A DNA stretch of 38,034 nt from a virus. Taxonomy: Duplodnaviria; Heunggongvirae; Uroviricota; Caudoviricetes. The stretch lies in the IMG/VR virus record IMGVR_UViG_2534681658_000022; one strand, written 5' to 3'. The notes under the pieces were generated by a model, which was not told the origin of the DNA, searched no databases, and saw only the letters and a list, made by a program, of their open reading frames with translations. A program made the translations under genes and the position numbers. Positions 1,693 to 37,249 of the stretch are shown here, one piece after another (the stretch's first letter is position 1; each line of letters begins with the position of its first letter).

Positions 1693-1911
1693 TCAAAAAT
1701 TCATATGCCCCTGACCACCTGGCAATGGATGTGGAGGAGCAGTAGCAATCAGTGCGGGTGTCACAATAAACCGGACCACTGTTTCATGGGTAACAAAAGT
1801 GCTCCCGCAGTTAATATTTTGGCACTGGCAGTAACGCTCTTTGGTGCTTTCAGTTACTTGAAAACTGCTCCTTGTGTGTGCCGCATGACCACACTTTGGA
1901 CAATTCATCAT
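1693..1911 (-). CDS. ogr: Late-gene transcriptional activator, Ogr/Delta zinc-finger family
   Basis: 72-aa product MMNCPKCGHAAHTRSSFQVTESTKERYCQCQNINCGSTF... with the C-x2-C...C-x4-C Ogr zinc finger. Start set at the internal ATG; the tracked ORF extends to 1956. Confidence 0.85.
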   Translation of the reverse strand: MMNCPKCGHAAHTRSSFQVTESTKERYCQCQNINCGSTFVTHETVVRFIVTPALIATAPPHPLPGGQGHMNF

Positions 1912-1979
1912 ATCCAGATCCCTACCTTTGCTATCAGAATCATTGTAATGATACACAAAATACCAATATTGAGAACCTT

Positions 1980-3080
1980 TTATTCCATTTCAAGATCATC
2001 AATCTTCACTTCGAGTTCAATACTGGTTGTAAAACCGTTATCCGGGCTGACGGTATGTGTCAGAGTCGTAATGGTCCATTCCGCATCATCTATCGGCTGT
2101 TTAAAACCACTGACTTTCACTGGCATTTCCGTGTAGAGATCTGCCCGACCTTCCGCCAGTTGTAGCGAGAATGACGCAACGCCGCGTTGCAGGCGTTCCC
2201 ACTGCATTTTCGCTGCCCGTTCAGCGTTGCTCCGGTTGGCATAAGTGCGATTAAGTACCAGCACGTTTTCATCCGTACCCACCAGGTAATCGCCCTGCTT
2301 CGCTTCCGGCTCTTTCTTCTGATTCTTAGTCCTGCGCTTACGCTTCACCGTTGTGCTTTCTTTCTTCGCGGGTTCGCGGGTATGCAACCAACTGGCAATT
2401 ACGCCCGTATAGGCTCCGCGATCTGCCAGGGTAAAGCGGTGACTGTCGCCGTCCTTACGTGTGATAGTGATCACCGGTAGTGGTTTACCGCTGGCACTTT
2501 TACCCTGTCCCTGCCGGATGAATAACAGATTGCCATTTTTCACCGACGCAATAGCACCGTACTGGCGCGCCAGCCGCATCAAAAAACTGCCGTCACTCTC
2601 ATTAGTCTGGTCTATATGCTCCACGGGTTTATCCGACAAGTCTTTAGCCAGTGCCATCTTCAGTTTGTGCCGCGCGGCTATTTCCTTCACCACTTCCCCG
2701 ACCGTGGTCTTGTGCCACGACTTTTCACGGCGGGTATTCAGCGTTTCCCGAAAATCAGCACTTCGCGCCCGGATAGTCAGGCGGTCCGGTGCGCCAGTGT
2801 GTTCAATCTCGTCCACCGTGAATGCCCCTTTCGGGAAAAGCGGCTGCCCCTTCCAACCCAGCGCCAGCGTAATGACCGCACCACGGCGCGGCAGCACGAT
2901 TTTTCCGTCAGCGTCGTCCAGCTCCAGATCAAGCTGGTCCGCTTCAAAGCCCCGGTTATCCGTCAGCGTAAGCCCCATCAGGCGGTTGTCCAGCACAGTA
3001 GTGATATCCCTGCCCTCAATACTGATGCTGAATGCGGGAGTTTTGTTGCCCTTATTAAGCAGTTCAGAGCTGAAATTCAC
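1980..3080 (-). CDS. D: Tail protein D (late control gene D family)
   Basis: 366-aa ORF at the P2 gpD position, adjacent to ogr and downstream of U; sequence character matches the gpD family. Confidence 0.88.
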   Translation of the reverse strand: MNFSSELLNKGNKTPAFSISIEGRDITTVLDNRLMGLTLTDNRGFEADQLDLELDDADGKIVLPRRGAVITLALGWKGQPLFPKGAFTVDEIEHTGAPDRLTIRARSADFRETLNTRREKSWHKTTVGEVVKEIAARHKLKMALAKDLSDKPVEHIDQTNESDGSFLMRLARQYGAIASVKNGNLLFIRQGQGKSASGKPLPVITITRKDGDSHRFTLADRGAYTGVIASWLHTREPAKKESTTVKRKRRTKNQKKEPEAKQGDYLVGTDENVLVLNRTYANRSNAERAAKMQWERLQRGVASFSLQLAEGRADLYTEMPVKVSGFKQPIDDAEWTITTLTHTVSPDNGFTTSIELEVKIDDLEME

Positions 3081-13538: not shown

Positions 13539-13626
13539 GCTGACAATATTGTTTCTTAAACTGAGTGATTGCATCGAAGTGGTTTTGTATGATTGCAGGC
13601 ACAAGTTGTAACTAAGGAGGCGATTG

Positions 13627-14064
13627 ATGAAATCTTGGAAAAACCGAGGATTTAAAAAAAGGGTTCTTGAATATGTTTACTGTTTCTCCGCTGCTCCATT
13701 TTTAGCCATGTTCTACACGTTGTCAGAAAACCAGCTGACAATGTTTATAATTTTCTTCACTGTGAGTTTTTATCTCACTCTGATGGCATCCGTTTTTTTA
13801 ACAAAACGAGGATTTAACAAAGTATTCAAAGAATTCTTTAATTTATTATGGAACTATGAAACGGCCTTCGTTTTTTGCTATGGCCTTTATACTTATCTTT
13901 ATAGAATTGATGGGCAGAAAACTTTATCAAACCTCCTTACCATTATGTTTTCAGCTCACCCATGGACACTTATTTTCGGCATCGGACTCTTGGTTTTCAC
14001 AGTAATTTTCAGGTTTGCTCTGAGTGTTGCTGACTTGCTAGTTGAAGTTAAGTCAGATATATAA
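13627..14064 (+). CDS. Hypothetical multi-pass membrane protein (moron, opposite strand within the late tail operon)
   Basis: AAGGAGG 6 nt upstream of the ATG at 13627. Markedly AT-rich. About four hydrophobic helices (e.g. LTMFIIFFTVSFYLTLMASVFL, WTLIFGIGLLVFTVIFRFALSV). Lies between S and V on the opposite strand. Confidence 0.6.
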   Translation: MKSWKNRGFKKRVLEYVYCFSAAPFLAMFYTLSENQLTMFIIFFTVSFYLTLMASVFLTKRGFNKVFKEFFNLLWNYETAFVFCYGLYTYLYRIDGQKTLSNLLTIMFSAHPWTLIFGIGLLVFTVIFRFALSVADLLVEVKSDI

Positions 14065-21808: not shown

Positions 21809-22836
21809 TGGGAAAGAGTAAGAAGAACCGCGCTGCGTCGACGAAACAGATTCAGCATAAAAGCCAGACTTCAGCCGAAGCATTCAGCTTCGGTGATCCC
21901 GTTCCTGTTCTGGACCGCCGCGAATTGCTGGACTATGTGGAATGCGTACAGATGGATCGCTGGTATGAGCCGCCCGTCAGCTTTGACGGACTGGCACGAA
22001 CCTTCCGCGCCGCCGTGCATCACAGCTCACCGATTGCGGTGAAATGCAACATTCTGACCAGCACCTACATCCCTCACCCGCTGCTCAGCCAGCAGGCTTT
22101 TTCACGTTTTGTGCAGGACTATCTGGTATTCGGTAACGCCTACCTGGAGAAACGCACGAATCGATTCGGTGAAGTTATCGCCCTTGAGCCTGCGCTGGCA
22201 AAATACACCCGACGCGGATTAGATCTGGATACCTACTGGTTTGTGCAATACGGCATGACTACGCAGCCGTATCAGTTCACGAAAGGCAGCATCTTTCATC
22301 TGATGGAACCGGATATCAACCAGGAGATCTACGGCCTGCCCGGTTATCTTTCTGCCATTCCGTCAGCCCTGCTCAACGAGTCCGCCACGCTGTTCCGCCG
22401 CAAGTATTACATTAACGGCAGTCATGCAGGCTTCATCATGTACATGACCGATGCAGCGCAGAACCAGGAGGATGTGAACAACCTCCGCAATGCGATGAAA
22501 AGCGCCAAAGGTCCAGGCAACTTCCGCAACCTGTTTATGTACTCACCTAACGGCAAAAAGGATGGTCTTCAGATTATCCCGTTGTCAGAAGTCGCGGCGA
22601 AGGATGAATTTCTGAATATCAAAAATGTCAGCCGCGACGACATGATGGCTGCGCACCGCGTGCCGCCGCAAATGATGGGGATTATGCCTAATAATGTTGG
22701 AGGGTTTGGGGATGTAGAGAAAGCTAGTAAGGTTTTTGTTATAAATGAACTGATACCTTTACAAAAACGGTTACAAGAACTAAATTATTGGATAGATGAA
22801 GATATAATCCAATTTGAAGATTATAGTTTAACTTAA
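21805..22836 (+). CDS. Q: Portal protein Q
   Basis: 343-aa ORF overlapping the P stop by 4 nt; the P2 gpQ position. Confidence 0.9.
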   Translation: MMGKSKKNRAASTKQIQHKSQTSAEAFSFGDPVPVLDRRELLDYVECVQMDRWYEPPVSFDGLARTFRAAVHHSSPIAVKCNILTSTYIPHPLLSQQAFSRFVQDYLVFGNAYLEKRTNRFGEVIALEPALAKYTRRGLDLDTYWFVQYGMTTQPYQFTKGSIFHLMEPDINQEIYGLPGYLSAIPSALLNESATLFRRKYYINGSHAGFIMYMTDAAQNQEDVNNLRNAMKSAKGPGNFRNLFMYSPNGKKDGLQIIPLSEVAAKDEFLNIKNVSRDDMMAAHRVPPQMMGIMPNNVGGFGDVEKASKVFVINELIPLQKRLQELNYWIDEDIIQFEDYSLT

Positions 22837-22873
22837 ATAATGATAACACAGGGCCTAGAATCGGCCCTAAAAA

Positions 22874-23545
22874 TTAAAAACCAAGCTCATCTCTGATTCT
22901 TGGGAATTTTTTCATTACTCGAATATCAGTTAATAAATGCCAACGCCAAAAAACAGAAAATGGATATGATACATTACACATTGGCTTTAGCTTATTCTTG
23001 GCCTCTTGGATTTCTTGTTCTGTGCTTCGATCACTGACAAGTTTCATTCTCCAACCAGTAAAGTAAAACAATTCATCTTGTAACTTCTCTGAGAGATTTG
23101 CTCTTGTAATGCCCCTCAACCCCGTACTCGAAGAGTTAAAACACTTATCTAATAATTTGACTGTATTTAAAACCTTTCTACTTGGTCTTTTTCTTCTTGG
23201 GTATACTTGAACACCACTCGTTATAGCGTTCCCTGCGAGATGAACAATCTCACTGAAAACATCAACATCACTCTTTGTGCAATCAAGTAAGTTTTCAAAA
23301 GAATCACTTTTAATACTATTGCATCGACTGCAAGCTAAAAATAGATTGTTCCAATCATATTTGAGCTCATCAAGATCACGATGTGGAATAAAATGTTCTA
23401 TCTCTGGATCCATAAGATTACCTTGCTCACAGAGATAACATTTTCCATGAAATATTTCGTCTAAAGCATTTACAACTGTTTTATGGTTATATACTTTTCT
23501 CGACAAGCATTGAGGTGCAGGAATATTTCTAGTAACATTAAACAT
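22874..23545 (-). CDS. HNH endonuclease, Septu PtuB-like
   Basis: 223 aa with an N-terminal HNH motif (HGKCYLCE...EIEHFIPH...NLFLACSRCNSIK). AT-rich. Overlaps the upstream ATPase gene by 8 nt. Confidence 0.75.
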   Translation of the reverse strand: MFNVTRNIPAPQCLSRKVYNHKTVVNALDEIFHGKCYLCEQGNLMDPEIEHFIPHRDLDELKYDWNNLFLACSRCNSIKSDSFENLLDCTKSDVDVFSEIVHLAGNAITSGVQVYPRRKRPSRKVLNTVKLLDKCFNSSSTGLRGITRANLSEKLQDELFYFTGWRMKLVSDRSTEQEIQEAKNKLKPMCNVSYPFSVFWRWHLLTDIRVMKKFPRIRDELGF

Positions 23546-24776
23546 CGTCTTCCCTTTCGCTATAATCTAAATATTTACTCTTAGCGATCATAAAAGCTGC
23601 TTTTGAACTTTTATCAAGAAAATCAATACTCTTCTGTAACGTTTTCATTATAGAATGAAATCTATCGTCGAAGACATTATTTTCTACTAAAGTCATTAAT
23701 TCTTTAACTAATGCATTTAGCTTATCCGAAGATACATCCTCACCCAACAATCCCTTTATAATTGCTGTGTAAGAATACAATGATAAATCACCCATCTGAT
23801 CCAATGTTGAGAGATTAAATATAATCGCATCAGATACTGATTGGATTACGAAAGGTGAATGCGTAGAAACAATAAATTGTATTTGCGGAAAAGATGATGA
23901 AAAAAAACTAAATACTTTCTTTTGCAATGTTACATGAAGATGAGCATCAATTTCATCAATAAGTACTATCCCTGTCATATCATGTTTTCTGATTTTATCA
24001 AGCTCTGCTTTTATCAATAAATCAGTATAAATAGAAAGAATTGATGAAAAACCAGATGACAACTTATCAAGTCCAAATGGTTCCTTATTATTTTGTAAAA
24101 GATAGATTTTCAACTTGTCGAGATCAAAATCCATTCTAATACTTTCATCTTCAAAAAGTTCTTTTAAGTCATCATTAATACTCTCAATAATATCAAAGGC
24201 TCTTTTATAGTCATCATCCTTGCCCACTCCCTTACTGACTAAAGCATAATTCCACAATGTAACTATGTATCTTTCAAAATACATACCAGCATCAATCTTA
24301 GAATTATTTCTCTGTGCGTTCCCATACTCAGTTAACAACAAATCGAGGCTGCTAATCTTACCATCATTTTTTATTTTCGCTTCTCGAATAGCAGGAAATA
24401 ATCTTATAATTGATTTTTTCTTTTTTGCAGCAACCCTGAAATCAACCACATCATTAAAAGTAATATCAAAGCTCTCAAATTCTTTTAATTTTTCTTTCAG
24501 TCTCTCAATTTCTTCGTTTAAATAGCTATAATTACCATCCCCTCTATTTGAATACTTTAAGTTTTCTTGACTGGAATTCAATTCCTTTTGTAGCTGCTCC
24601 TTAGTATAAGGATCATGTGAATTAATCGATTTTTCTATAAACTCATAAATATTCTCGATCAACCTAGTTTTACCAGAGCCATTATCTCCTGATATTATTA
24701 GATTCTTACCATCAAGATTTAATGTGTAAGGCTCATCGTTCCTTTTAAAGAAGATAGTTTCGATGAAATGTCGCAT
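23538..24776 (-). CDS. ABC/AAA-type ATPase, Septu PtuA-like
   Basis: Walker A GDNGSGKT, Walker B/D-loop VLIDEIDAHLH, and STHSP motif. Start set at the ATG preceded by GGGAGG; the tracked ORF starts at 24791. Confidence 0.75.
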   Translation of the reverse strand: MRHFIETIFFKRNDEPYTLNLDGKNLIISGDNGSGKTRLIENIYEFIEKSINSHDPYTKEQLQKELNSSQENLKYSNRGDGNYSYLNEEIERLKEKLKEFESFDITFNDVVDFRVAAKKKKSIIRLFPAIREAKIKNDGKISSLDLLLTEYGNAQRNNSKIDAGMYFERYIVTLWNYALVSKGVGKDDDYKRAFDIIESINDDLKELFEDESIRMDFDLDKLKIYLLQNNKEPFGLDKLSSGFSSILSIYTDLLIKAELDKIRKHDMTGIVLIDEIDAHLHVTLQKKVFSFFSSSFPQIQFIVSTHSPFVIQSVSDAIIFNLSTLDQMGDLSLYSYTAIIKGLLGEDVSSDKLNALVKELMTLVENNVFDDRFHSIMKTLQKSIDFLDKSSKAAFMIAKSKYLDYSEREDDV

Positions 24777-24866
24777 TATTCCTCCCGTCATACTTAATAG
24801 CTTTTAGATAATATGACATTACATGTTAGATTTCATCCGTTTTGTGAACATATCCACTGCCGCGCG

Positions 24867-24885
24867 CTCGTATCCCCGCCACGCC
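24867..24885. other. Putative cos site (cohesive end)
   Basis: Minus-strand GGCGTGGCGGGGATACGAG; the first 13 nt match the 186/P2-type 19-nt cohesive end as I recall it (GGCGTGGCGGGGAAAGCAT). Sits in a GC-rich patch inside the AT-rich hotspot. Confidence 0.45.
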
Positions 24886-25228
24886 TGCCCGCTTTATGTA
24901 GTGGTTTTCATGCGCCTGCATGACATAAGAAAAAGCCCGCCACTCCTGGCAGGCCTCAGCAAAAACGATCCTCTAACGATCATGCGATCTCATTCGTCAT
25001 AGTCATGCACAGCCAAGGGAAGCGTAAATCCGTATCTGAATGACCGCTGAAAAGCTAATCATACGGGTTTACAAAGATGAAAGTCCGCTGTGAGCGAAAA
25101 GCGGATATTTCCATTGTTTTATCTTGATCTAGTAAAAACAATACCCTCTTTACAAACAAAAATAATGAGTTACTATTTGCAGCACCTTTTAACCCAAAGG
25201 TTTATAATTAAAAAGGAATGGCATACCG

Positions 25229-25882
25229 ATGAATAAATACAAACTTTTCGCACAGCTATCAAGATATTCATTTGAAGCGCAGATTGATGATTTCGAAAAA
25301 TATATCCTAGGAGCAGGCGGCCAAAACAGAGTTGACTTATCGGAATTAAAAAAAGCATATGAAGATGAAAAAAAGAATGCTCCTGACGATTATATTAATT
25401 ACTTAGAAGACTATTATTCAGAGCAATATGATTTCTTAGTTAACATACAACCAAATATTTTTAATAAATCTGCTTTGGTATCTTTATACTCATGCTTAGA
25501 GCACAACCTAAACGACTATTGCAATATATGTCAAAGGATTGTAAACACCAATATATCAGTAACCGATTTTAATGGTGATGGCATCCACAAAGCAAAAAGA
25601 TATTTAACAAAATTAATGGATATAAACTTTGGCCTGTCACAAGAGTGGCGATTCATGACAGAGTTTAACAAAGTAAGGAATTGCATAGTTCATGCTAATG
25701 GAGACATTAAAAAAATGAGCACAGCTGTAGCCTTAAAAGATATCATTGATAAAACACCTACTCTTTCATTAAACAATGAAAATAATATAATAATCTCCTT
25801 AAATTATTTAAAAGATACTATCACAAAAATTAGAAAACTCTTTCAATGGTTATATACACATCTGGATCAATCATCGAAATGA
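25229..25882 (+). CDS. Hypothetical protein with HEPN-type RNxxxH motif (candidate abortive-infection effector)
   Basis: 217-aa AT-rich ORF with TATAAT at 25203-25208 upstream. Motif RNCIVH at residues about 151-156. No recognisable phage function. Confidence 0.55.
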   Translation: MNKYKLFAQLSRYSFEAQIDDFEKYILGAGGQNRVDLSELKKAYEDEKKNAPDDYINYLEDYYSEQYDFLVNIQPNIFNKSALVSLYSCLEHNLNDYCNICQRIVNTNISVTDFNGDGIHKAKRYLTKLMDINFGLSQEWRFMTEFNKVRNCIVHANGDIKKMSTAVALKDIIDKTPTLSLNNENNIIISLNYLKDTITKIRKLFQWLYTHLDQSSK

Positions 25883-25982
25883 ATACGATAACATCTCAGT
25901 TTGTTATTGGTCTATTTTTGAAAACAGCTATCGATGATATTAGTCTGTTCTTCGTCAATTAATATGCAATCCGTTCATGACA

Positions 25983-26004
25983 CAGGGCTGCTGTTACAGC
26001 CCTG
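25983..26004. terminator. Hairpin between convergent hotspot genes (possible bidirectional terminator)
   Basis: CAGGGCTG-CTGTTA-CAGCCCTG perfect 8-bp stem; no strong T-tract. Confidence 0.3.
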
Positions 26005-26134
26005 ACAACCTTAGACTTCAATCGATTCAGAGATCTCTAACGCATCATCACCCGTTGAACTCACAGCGATAAGTAGACGCTGGCGGCAATAACACAGAAG
26101 TGTAGCGGGAATTTGAACCACATAATTTGGTTTG

Positions 26135-27001
26135 TTAGATGGCTTTGCTTCGATATTCAATTTCTAAAATCGCCTTTGTCATTGCCGCAATAGTTATAGC
26201 TTCTACCATAGTCAATTCAGGCTTGTTCAAGCTTCCGTGTCCAGCAGTAGGTAATTTGTTACGTAAATCATAAATATCTTTAACAGCATCAATAAGATTC
26301 TTAGGTAATTTTGACATTTTTTCGAACTGTTTAAAAAAACCACCCAATGACTCATTTGCCACATTCGGGTTTTGAGTGATTTCCTTAGCCATAGTTTCTA
26401 AAACATTAGAGGCTGCGTGCAGTGCACCTGCCGGATCATTATTATCCAAGCAATTATTCATTCTATCTATTTGCTGAACGATATTTGGGTGCAATCTCTT
26501 TAAGTAATCACTAGCCAATTCTTCATTGAAATTTTTGACACTTTCAAAAACATCGCAATCTAAATAAAATTTAGGATTGACTGACATCCATGTATATTTC
26601 CAATCATTTTCTAAATTATCTTTTTCCGCAATACGCCTGCCAGTGTCCTGATCTATCTCATCAACATATTTACACATATAATCGGCGTAGTAGTGTAAAT
26701 ATCTAAATGATATTTCTGGGCAAAAATTACTAACTGATGCAAGGCCGCCATATTCTTTTGTAGTAACTGTAGGGACTTCTTCATCACATAAAGATGAGAA
26801 AGTGGTTCTTTCCCAAAATTCGCCCAACTCTTTTTCTTTCCTAGTTGCCATACCAGCTATCATATTGATGCTTGAGAGCAAAACTACACTCTGATAGTAT
26901 CGAGGACATCTGTATGAACTAGCATATGGGCATATTGATGATGCTTTACGATTAATACGCTCTTTTTCCCACCAATTTTTATCAGGAATAATTCTTTGCA
27001 T
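26135..27001 (-). CDS. Hypothetical protein, Cys-rich N-terminus (uncharacterised hotspot cargo)
   Basis: 288-aa AT-rich ORF, convergent with the 217-aa gene. N-terminal cysteines (CPY...C.RYY...CPE...CKY); C-terminal region with LRNKLPTAGHG. No recognised family; the true start may be a downstream Met. Confidence 0.55.
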   Translation of the reverse strand: MQRIIPDKNWWEKERINRKASSICPYASSYRCPRYYQSVVLLSSINMIAGMATRKEKELGEFWERTTFSSLCDEEVPTVTTKEYGGLASVSNFCPEISFRYLHYYADYMCKYVDEIDQDTGRRIAEKDNLENDWKYTWMSVNPKFYLDCDVFESVKNFNEELASDYLKRLHPNIVQQIDRMNNCLDNNDPAGALHAASNVLETMAKEITQNPNVANESLGGFFKQFEKMSKLPKNLIDAVKDIYDLRNKLPTAGHGSLNKPELTMVEAITIAAMTKAILEIEYRSKAI

Positions 27002-27489
27002 AATTTAGCTACTATCTCACGAGTGAATGAATGTTTAGCCTTCTGCACAGTTTATCAGTTCCGGCATGCCTACTGCTACCCCACTGATTCAACTTCAAGT
27101 TATGAGTTAAAGCGATTCGGTTTCGCTAGATGACACACTAGTGTTAATTTATGGATAAAAATTTATCACTTAAAATTAACTAATGCCTGTTGCGACCAAA
27201 AGTGTGCTGGAATATTATTTTCGTCTGGCCTATTATCAAGCTAATTATCCAAATTAGAGTTACTCTCATTCATCAGCAACAAATAAATACACCTGTTCAC
27301 TTTCTCAAAGTGTTCCTGTTTTATTTTTAAAGCAAACAACGCCGCCTATTCGTCCGAATGTACAACAAACATCAGGTTCTGACACAAAGTGGACGATCAC
27401 TTATCAAAATGACCGCCCACCTTACACCTCATTTCACTCGTTGCCCAAACTCCCCCCAACAGGATAAATCCTCTTGGGGGCAACGTTTC

Positions 27490-27723
27490 TTAATGCAGCC
27501 AGCTGTCGTCTTCCCACACCTTCTGCATAATTTTCAGCACTTGTTTTCTTTCTTCGTCCAGTTGCAGTCCGGTCAGTTCCACACCGTTAGAGCTACCTTT
27601 GCGGATACGAATTACCGTTTTGGGATACAGGGGGCGCAGATTGCGGTAAAGCTCGGATTCAAGGGCATCCAGGGTAGACTGGCTAATCTTCTGCTCTTTA
27701 TCGATCATTATTTCAATGCGCAT
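27490..27723 (-). CDS. DinI-family protein (Tum C-terminal-like)
   Basis: 77-aa product MRIEIMIDKEQKISQSTLDALESELYRNL...VWEDDSWLH matches the DinI fold signature. GAGGTGA RBS. Hairpin terminator just downstream, about 27455-27485. Confidence 0.75.
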   Translation of the reverse strand: MRIEIMIDKEQKISQSTLDALESELYRNLRPLYPKTVIRIRKGSSNGVELTGLQLDEERKQVLKIMQKVWEDDSWLH

Positions 27724-28075: not shown

Positions 28076-30490
28076 TTAATACAGGTTCCGCCACTTATCA
28101 TCTTCCTGTAAACGCTGATTCCGATAGAAGATACGCAGGCCAGCCCCTGACGGAATACTGCCTCCGCGAAGGAGTAAATCGACCTCTTTCTCGCTGCCAT
28201 CAAATCCTCTGGACTTCAGTTCATAGACGAGCTGCTGTCGCTGATGGTCTGTAATTCGCTGTTTGTAGTCTTTGCGCCGTTTCGGTTTCACCTGGCGTAA
28301 CCTTGCAGCCAGTTCCCGACGCTCTTTTTTGCTCATACTGTGCAGATAATCGTGCAACTCCTTGTCATCCTGGCGGGTAATGTCAGTTCTGGTGTCCCCA
28401 TCAGCTGATTTATCTTTCTCCTGTTGGTTCAAATTTTCAGCAAGGGGACAGTTATTGCCACGAGTCCAAGGGGCGCAAGCGCCCTTGTCGGCTGCCGCCT
28501 CCTGAACGTCAACGGCCTTACGAACCATTTTCCACTTCACTGCATGAGTGCAGATCTTGCCCTCTGCAATGGGTGACCAGATGCCATAAATACGAATACC
28601 GTGATCGCCATAGGCGGTCGGCTCTTCGTTGATTTCATAAGCAGTTCTGATGAGGTGATATTTGCGGGGAACCAGTACGCCGCCCTGCTTCATGATGTAG
28701 GTGGCAAAACAACCAGCATCAGCAGCAGCCAGGATTGCATCAAGGCGCGGGTTATCCAGTACCGGCGCACCTGCTTTTTTGTCCCCCTGCTGCCTTGCCG
28801 CCTGACCAGCCAGCAATCGCAGTTCACGGTAAGCCTGACGCCCCGGAATGCCAAAGAAGCGGAATTGCTGAACACGATGCAGAGACGCCCAAGCATTAAC
28901 GTATTCAGCGTTATCACGCAGGGATTTACCCGTTTCCTTGCTGATCTCGCCAGCCAGACCACGCCCGTCAATGTTCTTACTGATGTATTTCGCGATGTAG
29001 CTTGTTGGCGTACCTTTGCGCGGGTTTATCAGCTCGGACTTAAAGCGTGGTCCCGTGTTATTACCCAGCTCCTCGCGGTCTTCACGAATGGCAAACTTAC
29101 GCAACAAAGCAGTAATGGCGCGGCGATCTTTTTTGCGCATAAAACACAACAGGTGCCAGTGAACTGTACCGTCGTGATGCGGCTCAGCCACCCGCACGCC
29201 ATACCAGCGCAACCCGGCTTTGTGCATCGCCTTACGAAATGCAGCAAACATACCGACCAGATAATCACTGCTTTGTCTTACCGTCGCATTTGTCCAGGTT
29301 GGGTTGGGCCTGCCGTTATTTAGCGTGGAATGGAAACGTGACGGACAGGTGATGGTGTAGAAAACGGCGCAGTCACCGCGCATTTCCGCGATAAGCTCCA
29401 GACCTTTAACACAGGCCATCATCTCATTGCGGCGATGCGCAGGGTTGCTGCTGCTGGCGTTTACCACATCCTCCATGTCCAGCGTGTCGCCGTCTTCGTT
29501 CACCAGTTCATGAGAACGGAAAAACTCCAGCGACTTACGGCGCTGCTCACGTTTATGCATCACGGCTTCATAGCTGACATAAGGAGATGCTTTTTTGCTA
29601 ACCAGGCAGACAGCGCGCAACTGCTCTTCCCGCCATTCGCAACGCATCTTCCATAATTTCCGATACCACCAGTCGGCGCACAACATACGCGCCAGCGAAC
29701 CCGGAATGAGTTCATAGGGCACGGGTTTACGGCGGTTTCTTTTCCGACGGAGTTGCTCAAACGCAGGCGGGATAACATCCAGACGCAGGGTTTCCGCTGC
29801 CACCTTTTCCCACGTCTTGCGGATTTCTTCTGGCTTAACGTCATCGGTGGCATACAAATCACCACAAGCGGCATCAAGGCACATGCTCATATGCGCAGCA
29901 ACAAGGGTAGACAGACGCTTCACCTGATCCTGACTCATTTCAGGCAGGATCAGCAGGCCGTCCAGCCCTTCATGGCTTGCCATAAAGCGAAAAGAAGTGG
30001 ATAGCTGACAGTCGCGTACATGCTCCAGTCGTTCCAGACATGGCTTAATCGTCTCACGCAAATAGCGGGAATAAGCCTTTGGCCTGCCCAGGCTGCTGAA
30101 GTATTCAATACGTTGCATCAGCGGCTTGCTGATATGGGAAGGCTGGGCATTGACGTCCGCCAGAATGACCATATCTGGATTAAAACGCTGCTGCTCATGC
30201 GCCAGCTTTGCCCGGCTAATGAGTTTATCCTGCTCCATTTCGCGTTGGACAGGATCACGGGATTCATTAAAGAAATAACGCTCCCAGACCTGATCACTCA
30301 GTGCCTCGCGGCGCAGTTGTTCCAGCTCGTTATCGACAGCGTACAGAGTGATCAGGTTTGAAAGCGCAGAAACCGGCGCAACTTCCGCCGGGTCCAGATA
30401 AGGGTTAATGGCCTTTTTCGGGCTGTTCCATGAGAATGCTGCGGCGACCTCGTTAAAGCCGCTGCAGTTGTTCATATCAGCATGGCTCAT
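28076..30490 (-). CDS. A: Replication initiation endonuclease, P2 gpA family
   Basis: 804-aa ORF at the end of the early operon, the position and size class of the P2/186 A protein. Confidence 0.88.
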
Positions 30491-35499: not shown

Positions 35500-36168
35500 A
35501 TGAATAGCGAACTAGAGTTACTTATAAAAATATTATTCCCTTCCCTATCTGCCATTATATCCTTATTAGGGCTTAAAACAGGGTGGACTTATAAAAAAGA
35601 CAAACTATTCACATCACGTAAAAACATTAGCGAATTTTCATATCAGATGTATAAAAGCAGTGAAGATCCGACCTTCAAAAAACTGGCGGAAGATTACGGC
35701 ATTGCTGCATTAACCAAAGATAACACATTGACAAAAAAACAAAGATTAATATTACTCAACACAACAAACCCCGTTAGCGATATAGATAATTATTCCAAAT
35801 GTCAAAGTCTAATTTCCATTACCACCCATAAAGAAATATTCGCATGGAATAAAAAAAGATATAAATACAGCATATATAGAAAATTAATAAAAATCATAAC
35901 AACTCTAATTTACTTCATGAGCAGTCTCATCGTAGCACTTCCTTTCAGTTATTCTGTTGTAGTAAGTGCTAAGATGATGGAGAAGATAAACCATCTAACT
36001 ACTTGGCAATACTTTGGTTTAAGCAGCTATTTTGTGGTATCGGGAGTAGCAATATGCTTTATCTGCCTAGATAAGCTCTCCAAGATTAAGATCGCCGAGA
36101 GATTAATCGTTTCGAATAGGCGTTTAGGCGACAAATGCAGTGGCGGCACTTTGGCGGCAGAAAGTTAA
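35500..36168 (+). CDS. Hypothetical membrane protein between int and attR (candidate lysogenic-conversion cargo)
   Basis: 222-aa very AT-rich ORF starting 11 nt after the int stop on the same strand. N-terminal TM helix, Lys-rich cytoplasmic region, then two C-terminal TM helices. Confidence 0.55.
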   Translation: MNSELELLIKILFPSLSAIISLLGLKTGWTYKKDKLFTSRKNISEFSYQMYKSSEDPTFKKLAEDYGIAALTKDNTLTKKQRLILLNTTNPVSDIDNYSKCQSLISITTHKEIFAWNKKRYKYSIYRKLIKIITTLIYFMSSLIVALPFSYSVVVSAKMMEKINHLTTWQYFGLSSYFVVSGVAICFICLDKLSKIKIAERLIVSNRRLGDKCSGGTLAAES

Positions 36169-36356: not shown

Positions 36357-36463
36357 GGGCTTTTTTACGTCTATTGTCGTCCAGTGAGAATTGCTGAGAA
36401 CTACGAGTTATGGCACCCTGAATGGGACCCACTAAGAAGGGTCCAAAAACCGAGGGTCCCAAA

Positions 36464-37249
36464 ATGGCAAAAATCGCTAAGAAGCTCACTGACACTGAAA
36501 TCAAAAGCACCAAGCCAGCCGATAAAGAAATCAACTTGTTTGACGGTGATGGTCTGATTCTACGAATCGCTCCTTTGGCGAAAGGAGGCAAGAAAAATTG
36601 GTATTTCAGGTATGCAGTACCAGTGAGCAAGAAAAGAACCAAAATGAGCCTTGGGACATATCCTCACCTTACCCTTGCAAGAGCCAGAGCCTTACGTGAT
36701 GAATATCTCTCCTTTCTGGCAAATGGTGTTGATCCCCAAATCCATAACAACGATAAGGCGAAGGCATTAAAGAGTGCTACTGAGCACACTCTCCAAGCCG
36801 TAGCGCGGAAATGGTTAGATGAGAAGGTAAAGACATCAGGTATCTCACAAGACCATGCAGCAGACATCTGGCGCAGCTTAGAGAGAAATGTCTTTCCCGG
36901 TCTGGGTAATGTCCCTATCAATGAGATCCGACCTAAGCTCTTAAAACAACACCTTGATCCTATTGAGCAACGAGGCGTATTGGAAACTCTACGCCGTATC
37001 ATTTCACGTCTGAATGAAATCTTCCGGTGGGCAGCTACTGAAGAACTTATTGAGTTCAACCCGGCTGACAACCTTGGTCAAAGATTCAGTAAACCAAAAA
37101 AGCAAAATATGCCTGCCCTTCCCCCAAGCGAATTGCCAAGGTTTATGGAATCTTTGACGAATGCGTCAATCCGGTTGGAAACACGTATGCTAATTGAATG
37201 GCAATTGTTGACATGGGTTCGTCCGGGTGAAGCCGTTCGCGCAAGGTGA
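36464..37249 (+). pseudogene. intA: P4-type (IntA-like) integrase, 3'-truncated by IS insertion
   Basis: N-terminus (TDTEIKSTKPADKEINLFDGDGLILRIAP...) and internal segment (ESLTNASIRLETRMLIEWQLLTWVRPGEAVRAR) track the CP4-57 IntA family. The frame ends in a TGA created at the IS629 left end. Confidence 0.8.

What the first reader, a model, noticed from the sequence alone, without database searches (positions are those of the whole stretch)
25229..25882. Uncharacterised 217-aa protein with RNxxxH HEPN-type motif in the A-to-Q hotspot
An AT-rich, stand-alone gene with its own TATAAT element (25203-25208) in the accessory hotspot between replication gene A and portal Q. This is the position where P2-family phages are reported to carry anti-phage cargo (tin/old in P2). 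The product has an exact R-N-x-x-x-H motif (RNCIVH), the catalytic signature of HEPN RNases used by several abortive-infection effectors. I could not match the rest of the sequence to any named Abi family. This is my leading candidate for an undescribed single-gene defence function.
Basis: partly seen in the sequence, partly recalled or inferred. Interest (0 to 1): 0.75.

Follow-up and report, generated by a model that had tools for sequence, protein, structure and literature searches.

The report
Solo HEPN RNase gene in P2 prophage
A small stand-alone gene in the defence hotspot of a P2-like E. coli prophage encodes a one-domain HEPN-type ribonuclease that probably acts as an abortive-infection anti-phage protein, but this exact protein was already listed as an untested "likely RNase" candidate in 2022.

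Summary
ORF 25229-25882 (+), 217 aa, is real, AT-rich (GC about 0.32 against about 0.55), carries RNCIVH (R150-H155), and lies between replication gene A and portal Q. I located cos at 24867-24885, so the gene occupies the slot and orientation of P2 old.

The HEPN reading is supported.
- R150 and H155 are invariant across 67 homologues of about 25% identity.
- 61 of 67 match PADLOC's RT-associated HEPN model.

No conserved neighbour exists in about 47 loci. Close relatives sit as opposite-strand morons in several prophage slots, a Tn3 transposon and an ICE-like region, so it is a single-gene module. It is not detectably related to HepS or Tha, and it fails Pfam's RiboL-PSP-HEPN cut-off.

It is not undescribed. 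Rousset et al. 2022 list this exact sequence as P2 hotspot system 108, "HEPN_RiboL-PSP", "Likely a RNAse", among systems they did not test. Defence remains inferred.

Verdict: a new, untested member of a known kind, the prophage solo-HEPN Abi proteins. Interest is moderate to low.

The parts
25229..25882 (+). Coding sequence of the 217-aa solo HEPN protein (RefSeq WP_001404037)
   Evidence: ORF list. It is 100% identical to proteins on 100 contigs (P0001) and has homologues down to 20-25% identity: 3994 clusters at E<=1e-3. AlphaFold2 gives pLDDT 89.7 and pTM 0.83.
25676..25693 (+). Codons for R150-N-C-I-V-H155, the Rx4H HEPN catalytic motif, at the C-terminal end of predicted helix 138-156
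   Evidence: R150 and H155 are invariant and N151 is at least 90% conserved in 67 homologues of mean 16% column identity. R, N, C and H are invariant in the 28-sequence alignment. In HEPN domains the motif lies at the end of helix-3 (PMC3710099), which matches the DSSP of the model.
25499..25501 (+). Codon for E91, a near-invariant acidic residue in the long helix 53-105 (HEPN helix-2)
   Evidence: At least 90% conserved in both alignments. Anantharaman et al. 2013 place a conserved acidic residue in helix-2 next to the motif. That E91 is that residue is an inference; I could not inspect the model's coordinates.
25646..25648 (+). Codon for W140, invariant, at the start of helix-3; role unknown
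   Evidence: Invariant column in the 67-sequence alignment.
25213..25217 (+). AAGGA Shine-Dalgarno-like element, 11 nt before the ATG
   Evidence: Read from the sequence.
25149..25208 (+). Neither is above chance.
   Evidence: Scan: 13 sites found against 10.6 +/- 3.3 expected; sequence. A promoter must lie between cos (24885) and the ATG because of the gene's orientation. P2 old likewise starts transcription 44-46 nt before its ATG, just inside cosR.
25886..25919 (+). Weak A+T hairpin (25886-25893 pairs with 25902-25909) followed by TTTTT (25915-25919), just after the stop codon. A possible weak terminator.
   Evidence: -7.6 kcal/mol, z -1.6, 15 of 200 shuffles fold as well, so it is not significant.
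24867..24885 (-). cos, the cohesive-end sequence GGCGTGGCGGGGATACGAG. It marks the left boundary of the slot that holds the gene.
   Evidence: BLAST of the P2 cosR/cosL junction against the window gives 24873-24917, 80% identity, E 1e-5. Sequence read. The surrounding block 24861-25011 is conserved in 75 P2/Fels-2-like phage records.

Best explanation
The gene encodes a one-domain HEPN ribonuclease and is an independently mobile, self-promoted moron.

**Domain layout (predicted)**
- Helix-1 is about residues 3-31.
- Helix-2 is 53-105 and carries E91.
- An insert spans 106-137.
- Helix-3 is 138-156 and ends in R150-x4-H155.
- A second insert, with a small beta-hairpin, spans 157-190.
- Helix-4 is 191-215.

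**Location**
In this prophage the gene occupies the slot next to cos where phage P2 carries old.

**Most likely function (inferred, not shown)**
By analogy with other solo HEPN proteins of prophages, it is made constitutively in the lysogen as an inactive homo-oligomer. A product of an infecting phage switches it on. It then cleaves RNA (tRNA or mRNA/rRNA) through a composite site formed by two Rx4H motifs, stopping translation and aborting the infection.

**What is shown:** gene, fold class, motif conservation, solitary genomic behaviour, hotspot position.

**What is inferred:** RNase activity, oligomerisation, trigger, defence phenotype.
For: **HEPN identity**
- The Rx4H motif is the only strongly conserved feature. 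W140, R150 and H155 are invariant; E91, N151 and G158 are at least 90% conserved in 67 sequences.
- PADLOC's RTasHEPN model hits the window protein (E 5e-5, residues 122-164) and 61 of 67 family members (best 7.4e-10).
- Pfam HEPN_RiboL-PSP gives sub-threshold hits over the motif region in 12 of 67 members (best 3e-7).
- The model is confident (pLDDT 89.7).
- Topology matches the published HEPN description: motif at the end of helix-3, acidic residue in helix-2, insert between helices 2 and 3.

**Single-gene module**
- No neighbour family recurs in about 47 loci apart from integrases in 6.
- The flanking cassettes are swapped independently in E. coli.

**Association with mobile elements and defence regions**
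- P2 old slot beside a complete Septu system.
- P2 sheath/tail-fibre-assembly slot in Morganella.
- Ends of lambdoid prophages in Salmonella and Enterobacter.
- A site between baseplate and tail-completion genes, and a site next to an O-acetyltransferase moron, in viral contigs.
- Upstream of terS in a Bacillus phage.
- Tn3 cargo.

**Precedent**
- HepS and Tha are solo HEPN prophage Abi proteins (PMC13043305; PMC11087260).
- Six of eight randomly chosen unknown cargo loci from the analogous hotspot of P4 satellites defended when tested (PMC13586616).
- Rousset et al. reached the same reading for this exact sequence.
Against: - There are no experimental data for this family; defence and RNase activity are inferred.
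- The protein fails Pfam's own cut-off for every HEPN family.
- Foldseek against the PDB found nothing significant.
- Many distant family members in MAGs sit among housekeeping-type genes rather than obvious defence islands.
- I could not inspect model coordinates or model a dimer, so active-site geometry is untested.
Confidence: 0.55

Rival explanations
1. It is the toxin, or one half, of a two-part system whose partner went unrecognised. Candidates are the convergent 288-aa Abi_C-like protein, a small upstream ORF (25090-25236), or an antisense RNA that keeps the RNase silent.
For: In all 9 complete E. coli genomes that carry the gene, the 288-aa gene is adjacent. In Bacillus a homologue lies 44 nt downstream of, and co-directional with, a true Abi_C protein (E 4e-20). 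Many HEPN toxins have antitoxins (PMC3710099).
Against: Abi_C-like neighbours occur in only 2 of about 47 loci, and no neighbour family recurs. The 288-aa gene and its 3' flank (25899-26134) occur without the 217-aa gene in 9 of 18 E. coli genomes, including in a lambdoid prophage. The Morganella, Salmonella and Enterobacter homologues stand alone. The small upstream ORF starts in P2 backbone sequence that is also present in prophages lacking the gene. No Rfam family matches the region.
Confidence: 0.12
2. It is an active HEPN RNase serving the prophage in another way than abortive defence. Examples are tuning host or phage transcripts during lysogeny or induction, or acting against a host or satellite system.
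For: Its position in a moron slot says only that it is accessory cargo. Distant homologues are often not in recognisable defence islands. PADLOC recognises no complete system.
Against: The P2 A-to-Q locus and the other slots where relatives sit are documented reservoirs of anti-phage systems (PMC9122126; PMC13586616). Every characterised solo HEPN protein of prophages so far is an Abi effector. A Septu system is its neighbour.
Confidence: 0.2
3. The HEPN resemblance is superficial. The protein would be a non-catalytic helical bundle, for example a binding or scaffold protein, and the conserved R and H are structural.
Confidence: 0.08

Closest known systems
HepS (STM14_3211) of Salmonella prophage Gifsy-1: solo HEPN abortive-infection protein (Sargen et al., Nature 2026, PMC13043305; PDB 9oik)
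Tha-1/Tha-2 of Staphylococcus aureus prophages (Rostol et al. 2024, PMC11087260)
   Different: It is 301 aa, with a non-HEPN N-terminal half and a cognate inhibitor, Ith. hhalign of the family profile against Tha-1 gives probability 0.3%. Tha-1 leans towards the DUF4145/HepT-like Pfam families.
Pfam PF18735 HEPN_RiboL-PSP (Anantharaman et al. 2013), including the RiboL-PSP-HEPN protein PD-T4-2B
   Same: The nearest sequence family. There are sub-threshold matches over the helix-3 motif region, with the motif at a similar distance from the N-terminus (profile positions about 125-165 of 191). Rousset et al. and UniRef use this label for the protein.
   Different: The window protein gives no hit at E<=1, and relatives score 16-19 bits against a cut-off of 28.4. 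There is no L-PSP fusion, no ParB operon and no GNAT partner. No PADLOC PD-T4-2 model hits.
UG22 reverse-transcriptase-associated HEPN (PADLOC RTasHEPN; Mestre et al. 2022, PMC9226505)
   Same: The best-scoring profile for the family: 61 of 67 members, best E 7.4e-10.
   Different: The match covers only about 43 of 148 profile positions. No reverse transcriptase is adjacent in the window or among recurrent neighbours.
P2 old (and tin): the classical cargo of this P2 slot
   Same: Same slot and orientation, just inside cosR and transcribed away from cos towards A. Same logic of a constitutively expressed lysogenic-conversion Abi gene. A 2026 preprint abstract describes OLD as an abortive tRNase (10.64898/2026.07.10.737580).
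   Different: Unrelated protein: Old is an ABC ATPase plus TOPRIM nuclease of 586 aa.

Membership tests
HEPN superfamily | Conserved Rx4-6H motif | tested here: met
   R150-x4-H155. R and H are invariant in 67 homologues and in 28.
HEPN superfamily | [quoted passage not shown] | tested here: met
HEPN superfamily | Conserved acidic residue in helix-2 near the motif | tested here: inconclusive
   E91 is at least 90% conserved and lies in helix 53-105.
HEPN superfamily | Metal-independent RNase activity from a dimeric composite site | not testable with these tools
   Needs biochemistry or multimer modelling.
Pfam PF18735 HEPN_RiboL-PSP | Score above Pfam's gathering cut-off (28.4 bits) | tested here: not met
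   The window protein gives no hit at E<=1. Close relatives score 16.5-19 bits. 12 of 67 members hit at E<=0.01, best 3e-7.
Pfam PF18735 HEPN_RiboL-PSP | Contextual signature: fusion to endoRNase L-PSP or an operon with ParB | tested here: not met
   No such domain appears in the protein, in longer family members or among neighbours.
HepS family (solo HEPN of Gifsy-1) | Sequence homology to HepS (PDB 9oik) | tested here: not met
HepS family (solo HEPN of Gifsy-1) | Single HEPN protein on a prophage with no conserved partner | tested here: met
   This shows a resemblance in how it works, not membership.
Tha (tail-activated HEPN, S. aureus phages) | Homology to Tha-1 | tested here: not met
   hhalign of the family profile against the 80alpha gp03 protein gives probability 0.3%.
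HEPN-MNT toxin-antitoxin | Adjacent minimal nucleotidyltransferase antitoxin | tested here: not met
   The neighbours are PtuA and a 288-aa Abi_C-like protein. No nucleotidyltransferase is among recurrent neighbours.
UG22 DRT (RT plus RT-associated HEPN) | Adjacent UG22 reverse transcriptase | tested here: not met
   No RT ORF is near the gene and none is among the top neighbour families. The profile match is partial.
PD-T4-2 (GNAT plus RiboL-PSP-HEPN) | Match to PD-T4-2 models and an adjacent partner gene | tested here: not met
   PADLOC at E<=1 returns only RTasHEPN.
AbiD/AbiF (Abi_2) and AbiJ/AbiU2 (Abi_C) HEPN Abi proteins | Pfam or PADLOC profile match | tested here: not met
   The 217-aa protein has no Abi_2 or Abi_C hit. 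The neighbouring 288-aa protein has the weak Abi_C hit.
P2-like prophage defence-hotspot cargo (Rousset et al. 2022) | Variable gene between replication gene A and portal gene Q / cos | tested here: met
   Positions. Listed as P2 system 108, with WP_001404037 in the locus lists.
Anti-phage defence system (functional class) | Protection against phage infection on expression | not testable with these tools
   It is not among the systems cloned by Rousset et al.. Neither WP accession appears in paper full texts or in the DefensePredictor supplements.

The most novel reading that the evidence does not exclude
This family is large: about 4000 clusters at 50% identity, spread across bacterial phyla and reaching a few archaeal MAGs. 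It would be a previously unrecognised self-contained sensor-effector Abi family, distinct from HepS and Tha. The two lineage-specific inserts in the HEPN bundle (residues 106-137 and 157-190, the latter with a beta-hairpin) would sense a phage product different from the tail proteins sensed by HepS and Tha. That would show that solo HEPN immunity evolved repeatedly with different triggers.
Probability: 0.3. Interest if true: 0.55.

Novelty: new member of a known kind. Interest (0 to 1): 0.33.

Why it matters
If confirmed, it would add a third, sequence-unrelated family of one-protein HEPN abortive-infection systems carried by prophages. It would give a small (217 aa), easily cloned model for how a bare HEPN domain both senses infection and kills.

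It would also put a function on a widespread group of "hypothetical proteins" (thousands of clusters) that current defence finders do not call as a system.

It does not open a new category. The domain, the hotspot logic and the solo-HEPN concept are all published, and the candidate itself has been listed since 2022.

Tried and rejected
- **NCBIfam** on the protein: no hit.
- **Pfam** on the protein: only noise, Med15_fungi and FG-GAP, below cut-off.
- **Foldseek against the PDB:** nothing significant, as is typical for helical bundles.
- **Foldseek against BFVD:** one uncharacterised Myoviridae protein (E 3e-4), which is uninformative.
- **AFDB50 library:** not available.
- **PDB sequence searches** with the protein and two profiles: no relatives.
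- **HepS sequence:** I looked for it in LT2 Gifsy-1 for a direct comparison, but no candidate ORF is there, and the paper's supplements are not held.
- **Conserved-partner hypothesis:** rejected. All-against-all BLASTP of neighbours found none, phmmer with the two Abi_C-like neighbours found none, a Pfam census of 124 neighbours found none, and the upstream genes in Tn3, viral and Bacillus loci are unrelated.
- **Informative domain fusions** in longer family members: none.
- **Rfam** on 24700-27400: nothing.
- **P2 cos literal search** with up to 3 mismatches: failed; BLAST with the P2 cos junction found the variant site.
- **"Putative HEPN" (pFR103)** tested by Rousset et al.: an unrelated, longer protein, not this one.
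- **Block 25899-26134:** I first took it for P2 backbone. It travels with the 288-aa gene instead.

Full report
**1. The observation**

The ORF at 25229-25882 (+) exists. It starts with ATG and encodes 217 aa. It contains a single Rx4-6H motif, R150-N-C-I-V-H155 (codons 25676-25693).

The region is AT-rich. GC is 0.32-0.33 over 25001-26000 and 0.30-0.39 over the whole 22501-27500 stretch, against about 0.55 in the structural genes.

TATAAT is present at 25203-25208. It has no credible -35, and it would start the transcript inside the AAGGA ribosome-binding site (25213-25217). The promoter scan proposes TTTACA-16-TACTAT at 25149-25176 instead. It finds no more sites than shuffled sequence does: 13 against 10.6 +/- 3.3.

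The motif alone is modest evidence. RNxxxH arises in 1.1% of shuffles of this protein, and the general Rx4-6H in 31.5%.

**2. Where the gene sits**

The window is a P2-like prophage. Identified genes are smpB at 1-483, tail fibre genes, CI repressor and integrase near 33.8-35.5 kb, terminase and portal Q (to 22836), and replication gene A (28076-30490).

A BLAST of the P2 cosR/cosL junction places cos at about 24873-24917. The sequence reads GGCGTGGCGGGGATACGAG at 24867-24885 on the minus strand. It lies inside a 150-nt block conserved in 75 P2/Fels-2-type phage records.

Read in P2 map orientation, the order is: A, two small genes including DinI, the 288-aa ORF, the 217-aa gene, cos, PtuA-PtuB, Q. 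The 217-aa gene therefore lies just inside cosR and is transcribed away from cos. That is exactly where P2 carries old, and in the same orientation.

A complete Septu system fills the space between cos and Q. PtuA hits at E 7e-122 and PtuB at E 2e-82.

The gene is divergent from PtuA across cos and convergent with the 288-aa ORF. It must therefore have its own promoter within the 344 nt between cos and its ATG. This follows from the layout, not from the hexamer matches.

**3. What the protein is**

Close homologues (63-100% identity) occur in E. coli, E. marmotae, Klebsiella, Enterobacter, Dickeya, Salmonella, Citrobacter, Pantoea and Morganella.

A profile search of 1.84 billion representatives finds 3994 clusters at E<=1e-3 and 1718 at E<=1e-10. 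Nearly all are 200-250 aa and match over their full length. A genome scan finds relatives in Gammaproteobacteria, Cyanobacteria, Planctomycetes, Bacteroidota, Chloroflexota, Firmicutes, Nitrospirota and one Pacearchaeota MAG.

In a 67-sequence alignment with 16% mean column identity, the only invariant residues are W140, R150 and H155. E91, N151 and G158 are at least 90% conserved. In the 28-sequence alignment C98, R150, N151, C152 and H155 are invariant.

Profile evidence:
- PADLOC's RT-associated HEPN model hits the window protein (E 5e-5) and 61 of 67 members.
- Pfam HEPN_RiboL-PSP gives sub-threshold hits in relatives over the motif region.
- It gives no reportable hit on the window protein itself.

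Structural evidence:
- AlphaFold2 with the 28-sequence alignment gives a confident all-helical model: pLDDT 89.7, pTM 0.83, and five models that agree.
- Unrelated helical bundles score almost as well, and Foldseek finds nothing significant. The fold evidence is therefore supportive rather than decisive on its own.

The predicted secondary structure fits the published HEPN description (PMC3710099). The motif is at the end of helix 138-156 (helix-3). A conserved acidic residue, E91, lies in the long helix 53-105 (helix-2). An insert (106-137) lies between helices 2 and 3, and a last helix spans 191-215. A second insert (157-190) includes a short beta-hairpin.

The whole protein is thus one elaborated HEPN domain with no separate sensor domain.

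**4. Is it a single-gene module?**

I took 43 loci from species-representative genomes, plus the Salmonella, Morganella, Bacillus and window loci.
- All-against-all BLASTP of neighbours within 4 kb finds no recurrent partner. The family itself is in 45 loci, and the next cluster (integrases/recombinases) is in 6.
- A Pfam census of 124 immediate neighbours shows no family in more than 3 loci.

In Bacillus, a homologue lies 44 nt downstream of a true Abi_C protein. These two are the only such cases.

In complete E. coli genomes:
- The 217-aa gene is in 9 of 5426 genomes, always next to the 288-aa gene.
- The 288-aa gene is in 18 genomes.
- Together with its 3' flank (25899-26134), the 288-aa gene occurs without the 217-aa gene in the other 9, for instance in the nin-like region of a lambdoid prophage of strain EC261.
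- In strain O25b:H4, Septu is replaced by a P-loop NTPase while the other two genes stay.

The three cassettes are therefore exchanged independently.

Relatives of the 217-aa gene sit, usually on the strand opposite to the flanking operons, in these places:
- between sheath and tail-fibre-assembly genes of a Morganella P2-like prophage, a second variable slot there;
- next to the tail-tip and tail-fibre end of lambdoid prophages in Salmonella and Enterobacter;
- between baseplate and tail-completion genes, and beside an O-acetyltransferase moron, in viral contigs;
- upstream of terS in Bacillus phage vB_BteM-A9Y;
- as cargo of a Tn3-type transposon;
- beside a DUF4400 protein in Pantoea, which I read as ICE-like from my own knowledge of that domain.

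This is the behaviour of a self-sufficient moron.

**5. Mechanism**

The gene, the HEPN fold class, active-site conservation, solitary organisation and hotspot residence are shown. The rest is inferred.

By analogy with HepS, I consider the following most likely. HepS is a 218-aa solo HEPN protein of Gifsy-1. It rests as an inactive tetramer, is activated by the siphovirus tail-tip protein J, and cleaves tRNA anticodon loops (PMC13043305). Tha is an RNase activated by minor tail proteins (PMC11087260).

The likely sequence here is: constitutive expression in the lysogen as an inactive oligomer, activation by a product of an infecting phage, RNA cleavage through a composite site built from two Rx4H motifs, translation arrest, and abortive infection.

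Trigger and substrate are unknown. The two inserts are the natural candidates for a sensing surface.

I give about 0.85 to "HEPN-fold RNase" and about 0.55 to the full statement including anti-phage function.

**6. Comparison with what is known**

The protein is not a member of the HepS family by the tests available.
- Three searches of all PDB sequences find no HepS hit.
- The motif is 50 residues further from the N-terminus.

It is not related to Tha-1 (hhalign probability 0.3%). It lacks the partners that define HEPN-MNT, PD-T4-2 and UG22 DRT systems. It fails the Pfam cut-off of its nearest family, RiboL-PSP-HEPN. It is best described as a divergent sister of that family.

**7. Prior description**

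Rousset et al. 2022 catalogued the cargo of P2 hotspots (PMC9122126). Their supplementary file 6 lists WP_001404037 and WP_000049685 in the locus tables as "hypothetical".

In the table of P2 systems, entry 108 is "HEPN_RiboL-PSP", 29 occurrences, one protein, with a sequence identical to the window's ORF and the comment "Likely a RNAse".

It is not among the systems they cloned. Those include a P4 "HEPN-TPR" and an unrelated P2 "Putative HEPN" from strain S88.

Neither accession appears in the full text of any paper in the library or in the DefensePredictor supplements. [quoted passage not shown]

What remains open is the experiment.

**8. Verdict**

Novelty: a new, untested member of a known kind. 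Interest 0.33.

A specialist would not be surprised. The family is large, unnamed by defence finders and easy to test, and it could reveal a new trigger for solo HEPN immunity.

Noticed in passing
window 22874-24791 (-): A complete Septu system lies between the portal gene Q stop (22836) and cos (24867-24885). PtuA is at 23538-24791 (E 7e-122) and PtuB at 22874-23545 (E 2e-82). It is on the other side of cos from the old/tin slot. In E. coli O25b:H4 the same position holds a P-loop NTPase instead.
   Followed up: partly
window 26135-27001 (-), with 25899-26134: A 288-aa ORF has a weak Abi_C (HEPN) match (E 0.0017) and the motif RNKLPTAGH (R-x7-H). It is a second candidate solo HEPN gene. It travels with its 235-nt 3' flank and also occurs, split in two, in a lambdoid prophage of E. 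coli EC261 beside a zeta-toxin gene. Its own family is found in Serratia, Salmonella, Vibrio, Shewanella and Pseudomonas.
   Followed up: partly
window 25983-26004: A perfect 8-bp G+C hairpin (CAGGGCTG-6 nt-CAGCCCTG) lies between the two convergent genes. It folds at -15.2 kcal/mol on the plus strand and -16.5 on the minus strand, with z -3.3 and -2.9. There is no T run on either strand. It belongs to the block that moves with the 288-aa gene and may be a factor-dependent or bidirectional terminator.
   Followed up: partly
window 24867-24885 (-): The cos variant GGCGTGGCGGGGATACGAG differs at 5 of 19 positions from P2 (GGCGAGGCGGGGAAAGCAC). It sits in a 150-nt block conserved in Klebsiella, Yersinia, Salmonella and E. 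coli P2/Fels-2-like phages.
   Followed up: partly
window 25229-25882 versus L001 6230-6883: All five nucleotide differences between the two E. coli alleles are nonsynonymous (N2S, F15L, S38A, R141Q, D171N). The number is too small to test (p about 0.24 under neutrality), but the pattern is the one expected of a sensor under diversifying selection.
   Followed up: no
window 13624-14064 (+): An AT-rich (GC 0.36) 146-aa ORF lies on the opposite strand inside the late gene cluster and has no Pfam hit. It looks like another moron slot. A 69%-identical relative of the target gene sits in a comparable slot, between baseplate and tail-completion genes, in viral contig L065.
   Followed up: no
window 35500-36168 (+); 1184-1666 and 1705-2136 (+): More AT-rich ORFs with no Pfam hit: 222 aa directly after the integrase (GC 0.32), and two ORFs of 160 and 143 aa between smpB and the prophage tail end. 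A second integrase-like ORF lies at 36422-37249.
   Followed up: no
L008 6136-7738 (Bacillus, integrase-bearing island): A 245-aa family member lies 44 nt downstream of, and co-directional with, a 273-aa true Abi_C protein (E 4e-20). It is the only operon-like pairing seen for the family and is a possible two-HEPN variant.
   Followed up: partly
L073 976-5678; L016 4908-6651: Family members are carried as cargo of a Tn3-type transposon (resolvase, DDE_Tnp_Tn3, a 237-aa unknown, then the HEPN gene) and next to a DUF4400 protein in Pantoea (ICE-like on my own reading of that domain).
   Followed up: no
NZ_CP015088.1 (L066): A 29.5-kb record, filed as its own replicon of E. coli O25b:H4, is a P2-like phage genome. 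It carries a 655-nt copy of the gene with a one-base insertion, which shifts the reading frame near codon 79.
   Followed up: no
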